This document shows, piece by piece, positions 17,327-44,503 of a DNA stretch of 64,000 nucleotides; within the stretch, counting starts at the first letter, position 1, and each line of letters begins with the position of its first letter. The position numbers and the translations under genes were made by a program. Origin of the DNA: an uncultured virus (IMG/VR IMGVR_UViG_3300006484_000005) (lineage: Duplodnaviria; Heunggongvirae; Uroviricota; Caudoviricetes); IMG/VR virus record IMGVR_UViG_3300006484_000005, positions 1 through 64,000 of that record, one strand, 5' to 3'. The notes under the pieces are model-generated. The model saw only the letters and a list, made by a program, of their open reading frames with translations, did no database searches and was not told the DNA's origin.

Positions 17327-17341
17327 AACATTTATTTTGAG

Positions 17342-17413
17342 TGGGCCCGGAGGATTACGATACCCCGGCCTAATGATTATGAGTCATTTGCTCTACCTCT
17401 GAGCTACGAGCCC
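17342..17413 (-). tRNA. tRNA with CAT anticodon (Met or Ile2), atypical T-loop
   Basis: GGGCTCG/CGGGCCC acceptor, GCTC/GAGC D-stem, AATGA-CTCATAA-TCATT anticodon arm, T-loop ATCGTAA; no encoded CCA. Confidence 0.8.
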
Positions 17414-17418
17414 TAAAT

Positions 17419-17552
17419 TGAAGAACTTACACGGGACCAACCGCAAGGTATTCTTCATGAAGGAGTGTCTATCTGTATTCTCCTAACCCTGGTTCAGGAC
17501 GTTTGTGTCGTCTAACCAGTCTCATCAGTTCTCGGCACAACCCTAGATGAGA
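17419..17552 (-). ncRNA. Candidate structured RNA (four hairpins)
   Basis: GC-richer intergenic island with stems TCTCATC/GATGAGA, CTGGTT/AACCAG, AGGAG/CTCCT, TGAAGAA/TTCTTCA. Confidence 0.5.
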
Positions 17553-17557
17553 GTCTG

Positions 17558-17704
17558 CTGTAGTGGATGGATTCGAACCATCAAGTGGAGATTCAATTGA
17601 TGACAAACGCTTGCAAGCTGGTGGTCTACCCCATATCATCAATCTATTTCTTTATCCACGTCCTCGGGACAGGAGGATACGTGTGCCAGTTCCGCCACAC
17701 TACA
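17558..17704 (-). ncRNA. tRNA-like RNA (GTC anticodon) with a 78-nt structured variable arm
   Basis: TGTAGTG/CACTACA acceptor plus G73, D-arm GCG-GAACTGGCACA-CGT, TCCTC-CTGTCCC-GAGGA, GATGG-TTCGAAT-CCATC. Confidence 0.8.
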
Positions 17705-17710
17705 GTTTAT

Positions 17711-18082
17711 TTACTCTAAATCTAATTCTAATTGGTTACTAGTGTAACTTACATTAGCACCTTTTGGTAAATTAGTCCAAGTTGTATTTCCATTTGTTAT
17801 AATACTAGAAGCATTATAACTAGTACCACTTCCTGATGTTGTTGTTAAGTTTGTATCACCAGGTTGGCAAGTTATCTTATACTTATCCCATGGATTTACA
17901 TAATGTGGTTCTTGCCACATCGGGCTTGGTTTGAATTCTTCAATAGGTGATCCATAATCAGGACAATCTTTAATCTGATCCAATTCCGAAACAATGGTTT
18001 CCCATTGCTTCGGTGTTGGTCCTTCTTCATTTACTGCTCTAGCAAATCCTTTAAGCCAAAATATAAATTGATCTTTATTCAT
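17711..18082 (-). CDS. Hypothetical protein
   Basis: ORF track; tiles after groEL. Confidence 0.7.
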   Translation of the reverse strand: MNKDQFIFWLKGFARAVNEEGPTPKQWETIVSELDQIKDCPDYGSPIEEFKPSPMWQEPHYVNPWDKYKITCQPGDTNLTTTSGSGTSYNASSIITNGNTTWTNLPKGANVSYTSNQLELDLE

Positions 18083-19712
18083 ACATTCCCATATTTCCCA
18101 TGTCTGGTTGTTGTTGGTCTTTCTTCTCTTCAGGTTTGTTATATATAATTGATTCTGTAATCAAAATTGTACCTGCAACTGATACCGCGTTTTCTAATGC
18201 TAAACGAGTAACTTTAGTTGGATCGATAATACCTTCTTCAACTAAGTCTGTGATGATTTTAGTTTTTAAATTATAACCATAATCGGATTCAACATTAGCT
18301 AATCGGTTTACAATACTAAATGATTCTAAATTTTCGTATCCGGCATTAGATAATATTTTTAGGAATGGGGCTGTACAAGCACGATAAACAATATCACGTC
18401 CTAAATCCAAATCTACATTATCGTATTTTTTATTAGCTAATACCTCACGAGCATGTATTAAAGCTACTCCACCACCAGGTAATATACCTTCTTGTAATGC
18501 TGCTTTGGTTGCGTGTAGTGCATCATCAACACGGTCCTTTTTCTCTCTCATTTCTACTTCCGTAGGAGCGCCGATATTAATTACTGCTACACCACCTGAT
18601 AATTTACCTAAACGTTCTTGTAGTTTTTCACGTTCAAACATTGACTTAGCATTGTCGATTTGTTGTTTTAAATCATCAATACGTTGCTCAATTTCCTCAA
18701 CATTACCTTTACCATCAACAATTGTTGTTGTTTCTTTAGCCACTGTAACTAAGCGAGCCGAACCTAGCCAATCGGAATTGAATTTCTCCAACTTCATTCC
18801 CTTTTCTGGTGAGATAACTTGCCCGCCTGTTACTGTAGCAATGTCTTCTAAGATATGCAAACGGCGATCTCCGAAATCAGGTGCTTTAACTACTGCTGCT
18901 TTTAGAATACCACGCATCTTATTTACTAATAATGTTGATAGCGCTTCACCATCAATATCTTCAGCAATAACTAACAATTCATCATTTGATTGTGATAATG
19001 AATTTAATAGCGGTAGTAATTCCTTAACTTGAGTTAAACGGCCATTATACAATAGAATCTTCGGATTGTTTAATGTAGCTGTCATTGTATCGTTATTAGT
19101 AACGAAGTATAATGATTTATATCCTTTATCGATTTGAATACCTTCTACAATCTCTAATGACGTTTCACCAATACGAGATTCCTCTACTGTAACTACACCA
19201 TCTACACCTACTGCTTGCATTGCCTCAGAAATCAATGCACCGATTTCCTCATCACCATTAGCTGAAATAACTGCTACTTGCTTGATTTGCTCGTCTGAAG
19301 TAATATCTTTAGATATTTCTTTAATTTTAGCAATAACTTCCTTAGTTGCTTGCTCAATACCGCGTTTAACTTCTACTGCATTCGATCCAGCTTTAATAGC
19401 ATTGAATCCATCTGCAATCATAGTAGCAGCAAGTAATGTAGTTGTAGTAGTGCCATCACCAGCTAAATCAGCTGTTTTAATTGCTGCTTGTTTTAATAAT
19501 TGTGCACCAATGTTTTCGATTGGGTTTTCCAATTCAATTGAACGAGCAACTGTAACACCGTCTTTAGTTGATACTGGGTTCTCACCTGCATTATCGATGA
19601 TTACGTTACGACCGTTTGGTCCTAATGTGCACGTAACTGCATCTGATAATTTGATGACGCCTTTTAATAATTTGGTTTTTGCGTCTTGATTAAATACTAT
19701 TTGCTTACTCAT
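18075..19712 (-). CDS. groEL: Chaperonin GroEL
   Basis: TLGPNGRNV, TKDGVTVA, GDGTTT, KAPDFGDRR, GIIDPTKV. Confidence 0.97.
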   Translation of the reverse strand: MSKQIVFNQDAKTKLLKGVIKLSDAVTCTLGPNGRNVIIDNAGENPVSTKDGVTVARSIELENPIENIGAQLLKQAAIKTADLAGDGTTTTTLLAATMIADGFNAIKAGSNAVEVKRGIEQATKEVIAKIKEISKDITSDEQIKQVAVISANGDEEIGALISEAMQAVGVDGVVTVEESRIGETSLEIVEGIQIDKGYKSLYFVTNNDTMTATLNNPKILLYNGRLTQVKELLPLLNSLSQSNDELLVIAEDIDGEALSTLLVNKMRGILKAAVVKAPDFGDRRLHILEDIATVTGGQVISPEKGMKLEKFNSDWLGSARLVTVAKETTTIVDGKGNVEEIEQRIDDLKQQIDNAKSMFEREKLQERLGKLSGGVAVINIGAPTEVEMREKKDRVDDALHATKAALQEGILPGGGVALIHAREVLANKKYDNVDLDLGRDIVYRACTAPFLKILSNAGYENLESFSIVNRLANVESDYGYNLKTKIITDLVEEGIIDPTKVTRLALENAVSVAGTILITESIIYNKPEEKKDQQQPDMGNMGMYE

Positions 19713-21109: not shown

Positions 21110-21748
21110 CTAGTTTAGCTTTAAAAGCATACCAATTCCCATATAAGCATTTGGACGCATAGAACCTTCATGTACGTTACCACCAACTTGTAATTGAAGT
21201 AAATTGTCATTTAATGATTTACGAACAATTGATAATCCAAATGATTGGAATGGTTGTGTAAAGTTTGTAGTCATATGTGGGCCCATATACCACTGTACTA
21301 TCTTTGGACGGTATACTTCTACAATTCGTTCCTTAACTTTTGGTTTTACATCAGCAATCCATCTTCTACTTACTAAGCGATTATGTGAGATTGTATCTGT
21401 AATTATAACATTACCAATTCCATCTTCTAATGTAAGTGTTTCTTTATGTACATTTTTTGGATAGTATTGTTGTAGGATAGCAACAGTATCTAATGCTGTA
21501 GGAGCAGTTGGTACTGGTACCATTGTGTATTTTAATACTTCAACTGTTTTAGTAACTGTTCTAACTCGTGGTTTTGGTGCCTTAGCAACAGGTACAATTA
21601 TTGGTTTTGGTGCTGGAACAGGAATTGGTATTACTTTAGATACGGTAGCAATTCCGTTCTTATATGTTTTAACAATAATAAATTTTTGTTTTTGGCCAAA
21701 CGCTGACACTCCCATCAGCATTAGTAGTAGTATGTATAACTTTTTCAT
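21110..21748 (-). CDS. Secreted or outer-membrane protein
   Basis: Signal peptide, Pro-rich linker, C-terminal amphipathic beta strands; class B motif at 21753-21762. Confidence 0.65.
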   Translation of the reverse strand: MKKLYILLLMLMGVSAFGQKQKFIIVKTYKNGIATVSKVIPIPVPAPKPIIVPVAKAPKPRVRTVTKTVEVLKYTMVPVPTAPTALDTVAILQQYYPKNVHKETLTLEDGIGNVIITDTISHNRLVSRRWIADVKPKVKERIVEVYRPKIVQWYMGPHMTTNFTQPFQSFGLSIVRKSLNDNLLQLQVGGNVHEGSMRPNAYMGIGMLLKLN

Positions 21749-21768
21749 CGTATATAAATATATATTTT

Positions 21769-42369: not shown

Positions 42370-42948
42370 TTAAATTTCAAATAGGAAATTTATTACCATT
42401 CTTCTATCCGTTTCTCGTGGGGAAGAAGATGTGTGTATGGTAGTAGAATCAAATACTACTGCTGTATTTGCTTTTGGTGTTATTCGTTTGGTTATAACCA
42501 ACTCATCCGTTCTATCCTTAAAATCTGGCATATTATTATACGTTTGGTTAAACATGTAGGTATCTCCATCAGAATCGTTTAGATAATACAATAAAGTACA
42601 AAACTTACCTTTATCGTTTATATCCGAATGTGGTGGATGAAAATGATTTATTGGATATAATGGATCCTTCATCAACATATTTGCCTTTATACGTAATAAA
42701 TTGGTTGGTATAATTCCATGATGAATTAGTTTATCCTTAAATGGGTTCATTGATTCAATAAATTTAAAAGCTTGCTTGTGGGAAAAAAACGTATGTATAA
42801 ATTGGTTACTTTCAGTTACATTACTGCCACCATGTAATTCACTATAACTAGTATATGGTATGTAATACCAATCGAATACATTACTTGTAACCAATTCAGT
42901 TAAGTCTTGGTATTCTTTATCCGATAAGAAGTTTTCAATAATTCTCAT
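42370..42948 (-). CDS. 2OG-Fe(II) oxygenase
   Basis: PHSD (HxD), LLYYLNDSDGDT, IHTSS...RMVINF. Confidence 0.85.
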   Translation of the reverse strand: MRIIENFLSDKEYQDLTELVTSNVFDWYYIPYTSYSELHGGSNVTESNQFIHTFFSHKQAFKFIESMNPFKDKLIHHGIIPTNLLRIKANMLMKDPLYPINHFHPPHSDINDKGKFCTLLYYLNDSDGDTYMFNQTYNNMPDFKDRTDELVITKRITPKANTAVVFDSTTIHTSSSPRETDRRMVINFLFEI

Positions 42949-42993
42949 ATGTTTTTTAGAGGTATGCTTACTACAACCTCATTTGTTTATTTG

Positions 42994-43064
42994 TTACCCG
43001 AGCAGGATTCGAACCTACCATAAGCGCACCAAAAACGCTTGTGTTACCGCTACACCATCGAGCA
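42994..43064 (-). tRNA. tRNA-Gln(TTG)
   Basis: Cloverleaf; AGCGT-TTTTGGT-GCGCT; GTTCGAATC. Confidence 0.9.
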
Positions 43065-43072
43065 ATTTACTG

Positions 43073-43144
43073 TAGCCCCAACGGGAATCGAACCCGTGAC
43101 TCATCCGTGAAAGGGACGTGACTTAACCGCTTGTCGATAGGGCC
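43073..43144 (-). tRNA. tRNA-Glu(TTC)
   Basis: Cloverleaf; loop CTTTCAC; GTTCGATTC. Confidence 0.93.
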
Positions 43145-43151
43145 ATTACTG

Positions 43152-43224
43152 AGCTTCCGGTCGGGGTCGAACCAACGGCCTGCTGATTACAAGTCAGCTG
43201 CTCTACCATCTGAGCTACGGAAGC
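43152..43224 (-). tRNA. tRNA-Thr(TGT)
   Basis: Cloverleaf; GCTGA-CTTGTAA-TCAGC. Confidence 0.93.
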
Positions 43225-43228
43225 AATT

Positions 43229-43334
43229 TAGGAAAGTGGAAGATGGGTGCGTGGACATCTACTTTTATGATTGGCATTTCTAACCGATCGTACCCGCCCT
43301 TCCTACAGTTAAAGGATACATCCCAATCAACCTA
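43229..43334 (-). ncRNA. Candidate structured RNA between tRNA-Ser and tRNA-Thr (distal)
   Basis: TAGG/CCTA, TGATTGG/CCAATCA, AAAGT-AGATG/CATCT-ACTTT stems. Confidence 0.5.
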
Positions 43335-43340
43335 TTAAAT

Positions 43341-43414
43341 AAAACACAATCACTTCACATCTGCAAGTGCAAAAGATTGTCGAGCTAATTGCATATACAA
43401 TCTAATTGTGTTTT
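43341..43414 (-). ncRNA. Candidate three-way-junction RNA directly 3' of tRNA-Ser
   Basis: AAAACACAAT/ATTGTGTTTT closing stem; AGATTGT/ACAATCT and CACTT/AAGTG arms. Confidence 0.5.
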
Positions 43415-43415
43415 G

Positions 43416-43500
43416 AGGAGAGTGAGGGATTCGAACCCCCGGTCCTATTACAGACAATAGTTTTCAAGACTACCTCGTTCGACCGCTCTGACAACTCTCC
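43416..43500 (-). tRNA. tRNA-Ser(TGA)
   Basis: GGAGAGT/ACTCTCC acceptor; loop CTTGAAA; long variable arm. Confidence 0.92.
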
Positions 43501-43508
43501 TTACATAA

Positions 43509-43525
43509 TAAACATAATCAGGAAA
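43509..43525 (-). promoter_or_regulatory. Class A promoter motif inside the tRNA array
   Basis: TTTCCTGATTATGTTTA, 8 nt upstream of tRNA-Ser. Confidence 0.55.
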
Positions 43526-43540
43526 TCTTATATTTCCTAG

Positions 43541-43615
43541 AGTTGAGTGCTGGATTCGAACCAGCGATTTTATCGTTTTGCAAACGAGTGCGTTTGGCCA
43601 CTCCGCCAACTCAAC
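43541..43615 (-). tRNA. tRNA-Cys(GCA)
   Basis: GTTGAGT/ACTCAAC plus U73; loop TTGCAAA. Confidence 0.9.
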
Positions 43616-43620
43616 TTATG

Positions 43621-43691
43621 CACACCCTCTAGGACTCGAACCTAGAACAACGGTTTTGGAGACCGTGATGATACCATTTCACCAAAGATGC
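43621..43691 (-). tRNA. tRNA-Trp(CCA)
   Basis: ACGGT-CTCCAAA-ACCGT; GTTCGAGTC. Confidence 0.92.
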
Positions 43692-43696
43692 ATATT

Positions 43697-43797
43697 AACT
43701 TATCAGATGAATATTTTATCCCCATATGGGCCACAGCCATTAAGTGTATTACTTTCATTCATCGGCTATCACACGGTTTCACCGCATATGATAAGTT
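43697..43797 (-). ncRNA. Candidate pseudoknotted RNA between tRNA-Tyr and tRNA-Trp
   Basis: AACTTATCA/TGATAAGTT closing stem; GCGGT-GAA-ACCGT; GATGAAT/ATTCATC crossing TAGCC/GGCTG. Confidence 0.5.
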
Positions 43798-43799
43798 TG

Positions 43800-43879
43800 T
43801 GGGAGTGGAGGGATTCGAACCCCCAATGTCGTAGACCACAGATTTACAGTCTGCTAAGCAACCGTTGCTCAACACTCCC
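43800..43879 (-). tRNA. tRNA-Tyr(GTA)
   Basis: GGGAGTG/CACTCCC plus A73; GCAGA-CTGTAAA-TCTGT; variable arm present. Confidence 0.92.
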
Positions 43880-43912
43880 AAATAAAAAGCCCCTAACTTG
43901 TGATTAGGGGCC
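43880..43912 (-). terminator. Intrinsic terminator (attenuator) immediately 5' of the tRNA array
   Basis: GGCCCCTAA-TCACAAG-TTAGGGGCT followed by TTTTATTT, ending at the first base of tRNA-Tyr. Confidence 0.85.
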
Positions 43913-43939
43913 ATTTTAATATATTGTACGTTATCTATA

Positions 43940-44002
43940 TTATTCCCCTATCCTAGCCGTTTCCTGCCAAGTCGAAGTACAATATGTAGATGTGTTTTTC
44001 AT
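43940..44002 (-). CDS. Putative attenuator leader peptide MKNTSTYCTSTWQETARIGE
   Basis: ATG AAA AAC ACA TCT ACA TAT TGT ACT TCG ACT TGG CAG GAA ACG GCT AGG ATA GGG GAA TAA; core residues match the seven downstream tRNAs. Confidence 0.8.
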   Translation of the reverse strand: MKNTSTYCTSTWQETARIGE

Positions 44003-44006
44003 TTCG

Positions 44007-44016
44007 TATAAATATA
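44007..44016 (-). promoter_or_regulatory. Class B promoter motif driving the leader and tRNA array
   Basis: TATATTTATA, 4 nt upstream of the leader ATG. Confidence 0.65.
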
Positions 44017-44022
44017 TGTAAC

Positions 44023-44226
44023 CTAATCTTTTTGCAATTCTTGTTTTAATTTTTCAAGATATAAAATTCCATCCATTAACTCATCCTGAGCGTGATTAAT
44101 CCAATCGATTTTCTCTAAATCAGTACGATCTAAATCAGTACCATATTTTTGGTTTCCCATACGAGCTCTACGCTCAAATTTAGCAATCACGCTTGCTACC
44201 ACTGTGTCTACTTTAAATTGATCCAT
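44023..44226 (-). CDS. Small helical phage protein (NTP-PPase-like)
   Basis: GNQKYGTDLDR...WINHAQDELMDGILY. Confidence 0.65.
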   Translation of the reverse strand: MDQFKVDTVVASVIAKFERRARMGNQKYGTDLDRTDLEKIDWINHAQDELMDGILYLEKLKQELQKD

Positions 44227-44455
44227 TGTGTCCTATAACTTGTTCTAATGATTTATAATTCATTTCTTCACCATGATAAAATCCTAATTTGATATTATTA
44301 TTATTGTCTTTAATAATTTCACTAAAACCATATCCTTCACATATAATTCTAATACCATAATTTGGTTTTAATTTATTTGCCTCTTCAATAATATCAAAAT
44401 CCCACGGCATTTCGGGATCATAACTTTCACACCATTGTTTTGAAAAATCAGCCAT
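44213..44455 (-). CDS. Hypothetical protein
   Basis: ORF track; class A motif at 44469-44485. Confidence 0.65.
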   Translation of the reverse strand: MADFSKQWCESYDPEMPWDFDIIEEANKLKPNYGIRIICEGYGFSEIIKDNNNNIKLGFYHGEEMNYKSLEQVIGHNGSI

Positions 44456-44503
44456 AACTTTTTTTATTTAAATGTAACGAGGAAATATTTAAGGAACAAA
44501 TTA

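What the first reader, a model, noticed from the sequence alone, without database searches (positions are those of the whole stretch)
43880..44016. Candidate tRNA-sensing attenuator: the leader peptide encodes exactly the amino acids of the downstream phage tRNA array
Seen in sequence (minus strand): promoter motif TATATTTATA (44007-44016), then a 20-codon ORF MKNTSTYCTSTWQETARIGE (43940-44002), then an intrinsic terminator (43880-43912) ending at base 1 of tRNA-Tyr, then tRNAs Tyr, Trp, Cys, Ser, Thr, Glu, Gln. Codons 4-15 (ACA TCT ACA TAT TGT ACT TCG ACT TGG CAG GAA ACG) use all seven of those amino acids and nothing else, and both Ser codons are UCN, the box of the tRNA-Ser(UGA). My rough chance estimate with uniform codons is (19/61)^12, about 1e-6. 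The switching elements are present: leader TAGGGG (43945-43950) can pair with the terminator 5' arm CCCCTA (antiterminator), and ATATTGTAC (43977-43985) pairs perfectly with GTACAATAT (43921-43929), enclosing TAGGGG (protector stem). Established: this is the layout of trp/his/thr-type ribosome-mediated attenuation. Inference: a ribosome reaching the stop masks TAGGGG and transcription terminates; stalling on a depleted, cleaved or uncharged tRNA frees TAGGGG and allows read-through. The phage would then make replacement tRNAs on demand, for example against host anticodon-nuclease defences. I know of no described attenuator controlling a phage tRNA array.
Basis: partly seen in the sequence, partly recalled or inferred. 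Interest (0 to 1): 0.96.

Follow-up and report, generated by a model that had tools for sequence, protein, structure and literature searches.

The report
Leader-peptide attenuator gating phage tRNA genes
A tiny translated test gene, written in the amino acids of the seven tRNA genes behind it and wired to a switchable transcription stop, probably lets this phage make those tRNAs only when ribosomes run short of them.

Summary
The comparison it asked for supports its reading.

- **Relatives:** related and unrelated phage contigs carry the same layout of recurring promoter-like motif, short ORF, antiterminator strand inside the ORF's 3' end, intrinsic terminator and tRNA array. So does the cultured Cellulophaga phage phi4:1.
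- **Leader matches array:** across nine independent leader/array pairs, the true pairing scored best of 362,880 permutations. Four complete arrays covering all 20 amino acids sit behind 43-codon leaders holding 19 or 20 amino-acid types. A 43-residue peptide holds all 20 by chance about 0.6% of the time.
- **Folding:** with a ribosome-masked window, a ribosome on the cognate codons leaves the antiterminator free. One at the stop blocks it in 11 of 13 leaders.

**Weak points:**
- There is no expression or ribosome data.
- One leader family does not fit its array.
- The two 43-codon leaders folded do not mask the antiterminator at the stop.
- Matching among the closest relatives is loose.

Eight literature searches found no published attenuator for tRNA genes. 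This scan's own notes describe the same kind of element on other phage DNA. I class it as a new variant of classical leader-peptide attenuation, with confidence about 0.75.

The parts
44006..44016 (-). Recurring promoter-like motif (TATATTTATAY), ending 3 nt before the leader ATG
   Evidence: The pattern occurs 6 times in the window against 1.15 expected, all on the minus strand. Genome-wide, 19 of 22 copies with at most one mismatch are on the minus strand, mostly just upstream of ATGs and after terminators. A 212-aa ORF (21110-21748) starts 3 nt after the same motif. Promoter function is inferred.
43940..44002 (-). Leader ORF of 20 codons plus stop
   Evidence: The frame is kept at 20-21 codons in 12 of 12 sequence variants from relatives, while its middle is hypervariable.
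43958..43993 (-). Sensor codons 4-15: only Thr, Ser, Tyr, Cys, Trp, Gln and Glu codons, all seven present
   Evidence: Nine of the 12 codons are readable by the array's anticodons under strict wobble, and the other 3 with four-way U34 reading.
43945..43950 (-). Antiterminator strand TAGGGG inside the ORF, 2 nt before the stop codon
   Evidence: RNAduplex gives it as the best partner of the terminator 5' arm at -10.8 kcal/mol; 11 of 300 shuffles do as well. It pairs in 98.6% of cells across 12 variants, but it never varies, so there is no covariation.
43977..43985 (-). 5' arm of the long-range stem (codons 7-9)
   Evidence: Exact complement of 43921-43929. The stem is 75% paired across 12 variants, and one pair shows GC, AU and GU.
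43921..43929 (-). 3' arm of the long-range stem, between the stop codon and the terminator
43880..43912 (-). Intrinsic terminator: hairpin 43912-43888 and T-run to 43880
   Evidence: Hairpin energy is -15.1 kcal/mol. It is 100% paired in 12 variants, with one compensatory pair (GC 7, AU 4, GU 1).
43799..43879 (-). tRNA-Tyr (gta)
43620..43691 (-). tRNA-Trp (cca)
43540..43615 (-). tRNA-Cys (gca)
43415..43500 (-). tRNA-Ser (tga)
43151..43224 (-). tRNA-Thr (tgt)
43072..43144 (-). tRNA-Glu (ttc)
42993..43064 (-). tRNA-Gln (ttg)

Best explanation
This is a ribosome-mediated (leader-peptide) transcription attenuator that gates a phage tRNA operon.

1. Transcription starts at or just after the recurring motif at 44006-44016 (inferred).
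2. The 20-codon leader is translated while RNA polymerase moves on (inferred).
3. If ribosomes decode codons 4-15 quickly, they reach the last codons and the stop. There they cover the TAGGGG strand, the terminator at 43880-43912 forms, and transcription ends one base before tRNA-Tyr. Those codons belong to the seven amino acids served by the array.
4. If a ribosome stalls on one of those codons because its tRNA is scarce, cleaved or uncharged, TAGGGG stays free. It pairs with the terminator's 5' arm, and polymerase reads through into the seven tRNA genes.
5. The new tRNAs decode the same codons, so the loop is a negative feedback on decoding capacity.

Shown here are the parts, their conservation, the match between leader and array, and the fold geometry in silico. 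Translation, stalling and read-through are inferred.
For: 1. **Anatomy.** All parts are confirmed at the stated coordinates.

2. **Leader tracks array.** Nine independent leader/array pairs were compared: the window, four arrays of one 596,785-base virus record, a contig from a Cytophagaceae MAG, another phage family, and two blocks of Cellulophaga phage phi4:1.
   - The true pairing is the best of 362,880 permutations, and the own array ranks first for 8 of 9.
   - Per-leader binomial p values are 8e-4 for the window, 2.4e-7 for L261 and 5.6e-6 for L239.
   - Three of the clusters in the 596,785-base virus record and both phi4:1 blocks were not selected by my terminator pattern and have different terminators.

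3. **Arrays covering all 20 amino acids.** Four complete arrays with all 20 types (22-25 tRNAs) follow 43-codon leaders holding 20, 20, 20 and 19 amino-acid types. The chance of all 20 is 2,876 of 500,000 simulated 43-mers, and 158 of 31,288 real 43-residue windows in this phage's proteins.

4. **Close relatives.**
   - One with added His and Pro tRNAs has His and Pro codons in its leader.
   - One with added Ile, Asn and Ser(gct) tRNAs has Ile, Asn and AGC codons in its leader.
   - The window's Tyr-Trp gap aligns with the spacer beside tRNA-Pro in that relative. The window lineage therefore lacks both the tRNA-Pro gene and the Pro codon.

5. **Conservation.** In 12 variants, the ORF's middle has 53% mean identity against 85-96% for the motif, start, antiterminator, spacer and terminator. 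The frame stays at 20-21 codons in 12 of 12.

6. **Position of the antiterminator strand.** In 13 of 13 leaders, the best partner of the terminator's 5' arm lies inside the ORF, 1-45 nt before the stop. In 9 of 13, at most 6 of 300 shuffles do as well.

7. **Masked folding.** The antiterminator probability is 0.6-0.84 with a ribosome on upstream codons. It falls to 0.4 or less at the stop in 11 of 13 leaders, and to 0.2 or less in 7. The boundary falls at the end of the cognate-codon run, between codons 14 and 15 in the window.

8. **Translation is plausible.** Only 3 of 117 long ORFs in this phage have a Shine-Dalgarno-like 4-mer. A 212-aa ORF starts 3 nt after the same motif.

9. **Rfam.** Its only non-tRNA model spanning the whole element is a leader-peptide attenuator, Phe_leader. 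It matches over its full length at 24.4 bits, below its threshold of 55.
Against: - **No experimental data.** RNA-library contigs cannot show transcript ends.
- **One leader family does not fit.** L150/L157/L186 leaders have 19-20 amino-acid types, but only 8-9 tRNAs were found. The fit is 11 of 30 residues (p=0.2), on a record estimated 24% complete.
- **Clusters without a fitting leader.** phi4:1 block 3 has an annotated small ORF that does not match its array (6 of 32, p=0.66) and has no terminator. One Met/Tyr cluster in the 596,785-base virus record has no leader. The single-Gln leader is marginal (3 of 25, p=0.057).
- **The two 43-codon leaders folded do not fit the stop-masking rule.** A ribosome at the stop does not mask the antiterminator, with probabilities of 0.57 and 0.81.
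- **The window's antiterminator is weak.** It has only 6 pairs at -10.8 kcal/mol, against -15.1 for the terminator, and 11 of 300 shuffles match it. Without any ribosome it already forms with probability 0.59, so there is no clear 'superattenuated' state here.
- **Close relatives discriminate poorly.** Among the six with complete arrays, the own array is not clearly the best match. One leader keeps Pro, Cys, Thr and Gln codons whose tRNAs are absent from its array.
- **The leader is dispensable.** Two relatives have no leader or terminator, and their array starts 6-7 nt after the upstream gene.
- **Codon level.** The leader codons are not biased towards exact Watson-Crick matches of the phage anticodons.
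Confidence: 0.75

Rival explanations
1. The leader is translated and the terminator is regulated, but the signal is general translation speed or amino-acid supply, meaning uncharged tRNA during starvation. It is not the abundance of the tRNAs themselves. The element would then be a growth-state or infection-stage timer, not a tRNA-depletion sensor.
For: The design cannot tell an absent tRNA from an uncharged one (established logic of trp/his attenuation). Leaders holding all 20 amino acids would respond to any slowdown in translation. In the window, the antiterminator already forms without a ribosome at probability 0.59, so any delay of the first ribosome gives read-through.
Against: A pure timer would not need the leader's codon set to follow each array's content. 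It does follow: best of 362,880 permutations, and four differently composed leaders for four arrays within one genome.
Confidence: 0.12
2. The leader is translated and matched to the array, but it acts by a route other than terminator/antiterminator choice. Examples are control of precursor processing or stability, Rho access, or setting a fixed partial read-through level.
For: In the two 43-codon leaders folded, the stop-codon ribosome does not mask the antiterminator. The window's antiterminator is short and not far outside shuffles, with 11 of 300 doing as well. The terminator's T-run abuts the first tRNA base, so RNase P would remove the whole leader (RNase P role from established knowledge).
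Against: In 13 of 13 leaders, the best partner of the terminator's 5' arm lies inside the ORF's 3' part. In 11 of 13, the masked folds switch as the attenuation model needs. The hairpin and T-run are conserved and show a compensatory pair.
Confidence: 0.08
3. This is an ordinary terminator of the upstream operon followed by a tRNA array that is read through at a low constant level. The short ORF and its codon content are chance.
For: The 67-aa gene ends 20 nt upstream of the leader, and no other terminator lies between them. Runs of 12 or more codons from the 19-codon set occur 6 times in the genome. Most matches to the terminator pattern elsewhere are not followed by tRNAs: 94 of 105 and 78 of 98.
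Against: Leader and array co-vary across independent lineages. Leaders with all 20 amino acids sit before arrays covering all 20. The frame is kept in 12 of 12 variants despite 53% identity in its middle. The motif recurs directly upstream of the ATG.
Confidence: 0.03
4. The short ORF encodes a functional micropeptide, and its position before the array is incidental.
For: The ORF is conserved in length and frame.
Against: The peptide sequence is the least conserved part of the element. It differs completely between lineages while following tRNA content. No protein family search of the peptide itself was made.
Confidence: 0.02

Closest known systems
Multivalent leader-peptide attenuators of enterobacterial amino-acid operons (thr leader with Thr/Ile codons, ilvGMEDA leader with Ile/Leu/Val codons; also trp, his, leu, pheA). 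Recalled from textbook knowledge; Elf and Ehrenberg, PMC1183508, abstract seen in the listing.
   Same: A short leader ORF rich in regulatory codons. An antiterminator strand that a ribosone near the stop would cover. An intrinsic terminator just before the regulated genes. More than one amino acid sensed by a single leader.
   Different: The regulated genes are tRNA genes, not biosynthetic enzymes, so the product feeds back on decoding of the sensor itself. Valency is far higher, from seven amino acids here to 20 in relatives. Each amino acid usually appears once or twice, not in long runs. The start has no Shine-Dalgarno sequence and is nearly leaderless. The element sits in phages of probable Bacteroidota hosts.
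Rfam RF01859 Phe_leader (pheA leader peptide attenuator)
   Same: The covariance model aligns end to end (1-125 of 125) over 43880-44003: ATG-AAA start, long-range stem and terminator.
   Different: The score is 24.4 bits against a gathering score of 55 (E=0.048 in 301 bases, 0.32 in 2 kb), so it is not a member. There is no run of Phe codons.
pheM leader of pheST and other attenuators or T-box riboswitches that control aminoacyl-tRNA synthetase genes (recalled, not read here)
   Same: These are regulatory leaders that read the state of a tRNA or of codon decoding and control a gene of the translation apparatus.
   Different: Those control synthetases, and T-boxes bind uncharged tRNA directly without a ribosome. 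No T-box or other riboswitch family matched 42500-44500 at E up to 1. Here the output is the tRNA set itself.
Phage-encoded tRNAs as counter-defence against tRNA-cleaving immune systems (PMC12409363, abstract seen in the listing)
   Same: Phage tRNA genes that could replace host tRNAs lost during infection.
   Different: That abstract concerns what the tRNAs do, not how their genes are switched on. Whether that paper describes any control of phage tRNA genes I did not check, as I did not read its full text.

Membership tests
Ribosome-mediated leader-peptide transcription attenuator | Short ORF in the transcript leader, conserved as an open frame in relatives | tested here: met
   The ORF is at 43940-44002. 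29 of 31 pattern-matched terminators followed by tRNAs have a 20-43 codon ORF ending 24-39 nt before the terminator. 12 of 12 close variants keep 20-21 codons.
Ribosome-mediated leader-peptide transcription attenuator | Leader enriched in codons cognate to what the operon supplies | tested here: met
   In the window, 13 of 19 residues are in the set against 5.9 expected (p=8e-4). Across nine independent pairs, the true pairing is best of 362,880 permutations.
Ribosome-mediated leader-peptide transcription attenuator | Intrinsic terminator between the leader ORF and the regulated genes | tested here: met
   Hairpin at 43912-43888 plus T-run to 43880. It is 100% paired in 12 variants, with one compensatory pair.
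Ribosome-mediated leader-peptide transcription attenuator | Antiterminator pairing that competes for the terminator's 5' arm and is masked by a ribosome at the end of the ORF | tested here: met
   In silico only. The partner lies inside the ORF in 13 of 13 leaders. The probability at the stop is 0.4 or less in 11 of 13, and 0.09 in the window. This fails in the two 43-codon leaders folded.
Ribosome-mediated leader-peptide transcription attenuator | Anti-antiterminator (1:2) pairing that gives termination when the leader is not translated | tested here: inconclusive
The no-ribosome antiterminator probability is 0.3 or less in 6 of 13 leaders, but 0.59 in the window.
Ribosome-mediated leader-peptide transcription attenuator | Leader translation and codon-dependent read-through shown experimentally | not testable with these tools
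   Only contigs of RNA libraries were available, and they cannot show ends or levels.
Classical amino-acid operon attenuators (trp/his/leu/thr/ilv/pheA) | Regulated genes are amino-acid biosynthesis genes | tested here: not met
   The genes behind the terminator are seven tRNAs.
Rfam RF01859 Phe_leader | Score at or above the gathering threshold (55 bits) | tested here: not met
   24.4 bits.
T-box riboswitch or other known cis-regulatory RNA | Match to an Rfam model | tested here: not met
   No such family matched 42500-44500 at E up to 1. Only tRNA and sub-threshold hits were found.

The most novel reading that the evidence does not exclude
tRNA arrays of many large phages carry a self-referential sensor of decoding capacity. 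So does at least one tRNA array on a bacterial MAG contig that lies beside RNA-repair and conflict-system genes (not shown to be chromosomal).

The sensor is a mini-gene whose codon set mirrors the array behind it. In some cases it is a peptide of about 40 residues using all 20 amino acids. When any one of those tRNAs is depleted, for example by host anticodon nucleases or by tRNA loss during infection, read-through of a terminator is triggered at once and replacements are made on demand.

The hypervariable middle of the leader would then be rewritten as arrays gain and lose tRNAs.
Probability: 0.45. Interest if true: 0.92.

Novelty: new variant of a known kind. Interest (0 to 1): 0.87.

Why it matters
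How phage tRNA genes are switched on is largely unexplored. Most discussion concerns codon usage and, more recently, escape from tRNA-cleaving host defences (PMC12409363, abstract seen in the listing).

A leader-peptide attenuator matched to each array would mean that the phage measures the host's decoding capacity codon by codon and tops up only what is missing. That would be a feedback loop in which the regulated product is the molecule being sensed.

- It extends a textbook mechanism to a new class of genes and to a valency never described, up to 20 amino acids in one leader.
- It gives a ready-made natural reporter of tRNA shortage.
- It is directly testable, because a cultured phage-host pair carries the same layout. 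That pair is Cellulophaga phage phi4:1 on Cellulophaga baltica.
- It also suggests re-annotating small 'hypothetical proteins' between phage tRNA genes, such as phi4:1 gp075, as regulatory leaders.

Tried and rejected
**Searches that gave little or nothing**
- Near-identity BLAST of 42900-44300 against cultured phages gave only a 39-base tRNA-Thr match.
- Related loci for the downstream 2OG-Fe(II) oxygenase returned only the window's own lineage.
- Rfam gave only a sub-threshold Phe_leader hit and chance-level sRNA hits.
- The sigma-70 consensus scan was uninformative, with 14 sites against 13.9 expected.
- The scan's notes hold nothing for this genome.

**RNA libraries**
- Four metatranscriptome runs, held as contigs, were laid on 42900-44500.
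- They carry relatives at 90-99% identity over the tRNAs.
- One 152-base contig (X16, record 14) covers 43794-43920 and so bridges the terminator into tRNA-Tyr.
- Contigs show neither ends, strand nor level, and DNA may be present in these libraries. I draw no conclusion on expression.

**Excluded after inspection**
- L094 is a GC-rich contig whose 45-aa hydrophobic ORF has its own terminator and does not match its array.
- L217 is truncated after one tRNA.

**Negative or weak results**
- The leader family L150/L157/L186 against its 8-9 tRNAs.
- phi4:1 block 3. I dropped it from the permutation because it has no terminator. Its fit is 6 of 32, p=0.66.
- The Met/Tyr cluster L259, which has no leader.
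- The single-Gln leader, which is marginal at p=0.057.
- Among the six close relatives with complete arrays, the own array is not clearly the best match (matrix).

**Other points**
- The helix finder failed on L261. It was repaired.
- The tRNA-Met at 17341-17413 has no leader-like ORF or terminator upstream.
- A micropeptide function and a T-box-like direct tRNA sensor were considered and set aside (see rivals and membership test).
Full report
**1. The observation**

On the minus strand, the window holds these parts in order.
- A motif at 44006-44016.
- TAGGGG at 43945-43950.
- Two exactly complementary 9-base arms at 43977-43985 and 43921-43929.
- A hairpin at 43912-43888, whose T-run ends at 43880.
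- From 43879, the tRNAs Tyr(gta), Trp(cca), Cys(gca), Ser(tga), Thr(tgt), Glu(ttc) and Gln(ttg), down to 42993.

Codons 4-15 use those seven amino acids only and use all of them, and both Ser codons are UCN. The whole genome is one contig of 118,326 bases with 32% G+C. Its only other tRNA is a Met at 17341-17413.

**2. Is it more than chance?**

I scanned all six frames of the genome, 236,648 codon positions.
- *19-codon set:* codons of the set make up 28.5% of positions. Six runs of 12 or more occur. The other five are low-complexity Ser/Thr/Cys runs with 3-4 amino-acid types.
- *17-codon set:* restricted to the codons these anticodons can read, the leader's run of 12 is the longest in the genome. 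It is the only run that contains all seven amino acids.

On its own this is suggestive but chosen after the fact. The comparative test decides the matter.

**3. Relatives with different arrays**

The 67-aa gene just upstream (44023-44226) has many relatives in viral contigs. In eight of them it is followed by a tRNA array, and the arrays differ.
- *L002:* its array adds Pro and His, and its 21-codon leader gains a Pro and a His codon.
- *L180:* its array adds Ile, Asn and Ser(gct), and its leader has Ile, Asn and an AGC codon.
- *L008:* it has 23 tRNAs for all 20 amino acids, and its 43-codon leader holds all 20 amino acids. Its Ser, Leu and Arg codons come from both codon boxes, matching two isoacceptors each.
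- *L004 and L007:* these have neither leader nor terminator, and the array starts 6-7 nt after the gene.

The window's Tyr-Trp spacer aligns with the spacer beside tRNA-Pro in L002. The window lineage therefore lacks both that tRNA and the Pro codon.

**4. Unrelated lineages**

I scanned three collections for the terminator's shape.
- 11 of 105 and 20 of 98 oriented matches are followed by a tRNA, within 60 and 80 nt respectively.
- 29 of those 31 have a 20-43 codon ORF ending 24-39 nt before the terminator.
- The pattern selects terminators, not leader content.

New, unrelated leaders each fit their own array.
- *Cys, Leu, Leu, Gln:* the leader core is almost all Leu, Gln and Cys (L239; 13 of 27, p=5.6e-6).
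- *Val, Leu, Ile, Leu, Arg, Asn, Cys, Thr:* the leader has 28 of 34 residues in that set (L127/L261; p=2.4e-7).
- *A second family covering all 20:* the L089 type, with 22 tRNAs.

The 596,785-base virus record that holds L127 has 17 tRNAs in five clusters. I fetched the others.
- Three more clusters each have their own leader, their own different terminator and a shared upstream motif.
- *Trp, Phe, His, Lys:* 12 of 33, p=1e-3.
- *Ser, Arg, Ser:* 8 of 22, p=2e-3, with Ser codons from both boxes.
- *A single Gln:* 3 of 25, p=0.057.
- A Met/Tyr cluster has none.

**5. A cultured example**

A distant DNA search with a relative's array found Cellulophaga phage phi4:1, NC_021788.1, whose host is Cellulophaga baltica.
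- *Block 1* (Pro, Glu, Gln, His, Leu, Leu, Arg) is preceded by an unannotated 22-codon ORF. It has eleven consecutive codons from exactly those six amino acids, a copy of the terminator's 3'-arm core inside the ORF, and a terminator abutting tRNA-Pro.
- *Block 2* (Ala, Lys, Ile, Gly, Met, Asp, Thr, Val, Arg, Met, Tyr) is preceded by the annotated 'hypothetical protein' gp075. 30 of its 38 residues are in the set, and a terminator follows.
- *Block 3* has a small ORF that does not fit (6 of 32) and no terminator.

**6. Statistics**

- *Background:* amino-acid frequencies came from this phage's 118 ORFs of 100 aa or more. Each leader was scored against every array as a z-score.
- *First test:* across seven independent pairs, the true pairing was the best of 5,040 permutations.
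- *Second test:* across nine pairs including phi4:1 blocks 1 and 2, it was the best of 362,880. The own array ranked first for 8 of 9.
- *Dropped row:* phi4:1 block 3 was left out of that test.
- *Coverage of all 20:* a random 43-mer holds all 20 amino acids in 2,876 of 500,000 simulations, and a 31-mer in 71 of 500,000. Among real 43-residue windows of this phage's proteins the count is 158 of 31,288.
- *Observed:* ten rows have leaders with all 20 amino acids. They fall into four leader types (L089, L008, L199, L150).

**7. Conservation pattern**

I aligned 12 sequence variants of the window's own leader family.
- Mean pairwise identity is 90% for the motif and first seven codons and 53% for codons 8-17.
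- It is 86% for the antiterminator-to-stop segment, 85% for the spacer and 96% for the terminator.
- The frame is kept at 20-21 codons in 12 of 12.
- The terminator pairs in 100% of cells and has one compensatory pair (GC 7, AU 4, GU 1).
- The antiterminator pairs in 98.6% of cells but never varies.

So the scaffold is conserved and the sensor codons are rewritten.

**8. Does the switch fold as the model needs?**

- *Partner of the 5' arm:* in 13 leaders, the best RNAduplex partner of the terminator's 5' arm always lies inside the ORF, 1-45 nt before the stop. In 9 of 13, at most 6 of 300 shuffles do as well. In the window it is 11 of 300.
- *Method:* I folded each transcript cut just before the terminator's 3' arm. 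A 28-nt ribosome window was held unpaired at each A-site codon.
- *The window:* the 5' arm pairs upstream with probability 0.6-0.7 for A-site codons 1-14, and about 0.1 from codon 15 to the stop.
- *All 13 leaders:* the plateau is 0.6-0.84. The value at the stop is 0.4 or less in 11 of 13, and 0.2 or less in 7.
- *Position of the boundary:* in the window, L261, L257, L258, L239 and phi4:1 block 1, the boundary falls at the end of the cognate-codon run. In the single-Gln leader, only codons 9-15, which include two Gln codons, open the antiterminator.
- *Exceptions:* the two 43-codon leaders folded fail this test (0.57 and 0.81 at the stop). Their stop lies 17-18 nt past the end of the strand.
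- *No ribosome:* the antiterminator is suppressed (0.3 or less) in 6 of 13 leaders, but not in the window (0.59).

**9. Promoter, translation start and host**

- *Motif:* TATATTTATAY occurs 6 times in the window against 1.15 expected, all on the coding strand. Genome-wide copies sit after terminators and just before ATGs.
- *Same spacing before a long ORF:* a 212-aa ORF starts 3 nt after the motif, the same spacing as the leader.
- *Shine-Dalgarno:* only 3 of 117 long ORFs have a Shine-Dalgarno-like 4-mer. Its absence before the leader is therefore normal here.
- *Phage identity:* the window's genes include DNA polymerase, a GroEL-like chaperonin, ribonucleotide reductase, thymidylate synthase and a DnaB-like helicase.
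- *Host hints:* cultured-phage homologues of the 67-aa protein are mostly from Flavobacterium phages, 102 of 128 records. Related arrays lie on contigs binned with Flavobacterium and Cytophagaceae MAGs. The host is probably a member of Bacteroidota, on weak evidence.

**10. Mechanism and its limits**

The best-supported reading is classical ribosome-mediated attenuation applied to a tRNA operon.
- Fast decoding of the array's codons carries the ribosome over the antiterminator strand, and transcription stops one base before the first tRNA.
- Slow decoding leaves the strand free, and the array is transcribed.
- The product relieves the stall, so this is negative feedback.

What triggers it in nature is inference. 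Candidates are tRNA cleavage by host defences, tRNA decay during infection, codon-usage mismatch, or plain starvation.

The evidence against this reading is real.
- There are no expression data.
- One leader family does not fit its array.
- The antiterminator is short.
- The two 43-codon leaders folded do not fit the stop-masking rule.
- Matching among the closest relatives is loose.

**11. Known or new?**

Eight full-text searches found no paper describing leader-peptide attenuation of tRNA genes.
- I saw only the search listings with abstract openings, plus one passage of PMC3082878, which was unrelated.
- The library lacks most subscription journals, and I could not check older work on phage tRNA regions.
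- This scan's own notes describe the same kind of element on other phage DNA, and one on an archaeal array. Those are unchecked AI notes and are not independent evidence. They agree with my reading, which I had formed before seeing them.

I class the element as a new variant of a known kind.

Noticed in passing
window 17414-17710 (minus strand): A GC-richer stretch just upstream of tRNA-Met starts and ends with complementary 8-base acceptor-like ends. It has a T-arm-like sequence before its 3' end and spans about 150 nt. Neither ARAGORN (also in intron mode) nor Rfam calls it. It may be an odd or interrupted tRNA-like gene.
   Followed up: partly
window 43225-43414 and 43692-43798 (minus strand): There are two long spacers inside the array. 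The 107-nt one aligns with the spacer beside tRNA-Pro in relative L002, so a tRNA is missing here. The 190-nt one differs between relatives (joints) and folds no better than shuffles, z=-1.27.
   Followed up: partly
L239 1-5655 (contig of a Cytophagaceae MAG): The Cys-Leu-Leu-Gln array and its matched leader sit among five genes. These are a Tpt1/KptA RNA 2'-phosphotransferase, a PP2C phosphatase, an HD/cytidylyltransferase-like protein, a protein with effector-associated domains EAD7 and EAD11, and a DUF7935 protein. No clear phage genes are present. This may be a bacterial island combining spare tRNAs, RNA repair and conflict-system parts.
   Followed up: partly
L262 4295-4414 and 3370-3500 (Cellulophaga phage phi4:1, NC_021788.1): The annotated hypothetical protein gp075 looks like a leader peptide for the second tRNA block. 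A similar unannotated ORF precedes tRNA-Pro. Both follow a shared upstream sequence of about 28 nt.
   Followed up: partly
window 21110-21762 and other copies of the motif: The motif TATATTTATAY recurs on the coding strand after terminators and as little as 3 nt before start codons. With only 3 of 117 ORFs carrying a Shine-Dalgarno-like 4-mer, this suggests near-leaderless mRNAs in this phage.
   Followed up: partly
L257, L258, L260, L261 (596,785-base virus record): All four leaders share an upstream element: GGAAG, an A-rich spacer, then a TATATAC-ending box 4-6 nt before the ATG. This is probably a phage promoter class dedicated to the tRNA operons.
   Followed up: no
L004 4201-4215 and L007 4192-4205: Two close relatives lack the leader and terminator altogether. 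Their arrays start 6-7 nt after the upstream gene, so the control element can be lost as a module.
   Followed up: no
window 18075-19712 (minus strand): The phage encodes a full-length GroEL-like chaperonin (PHROG 5725, E=9e-156).
   Followed up: no
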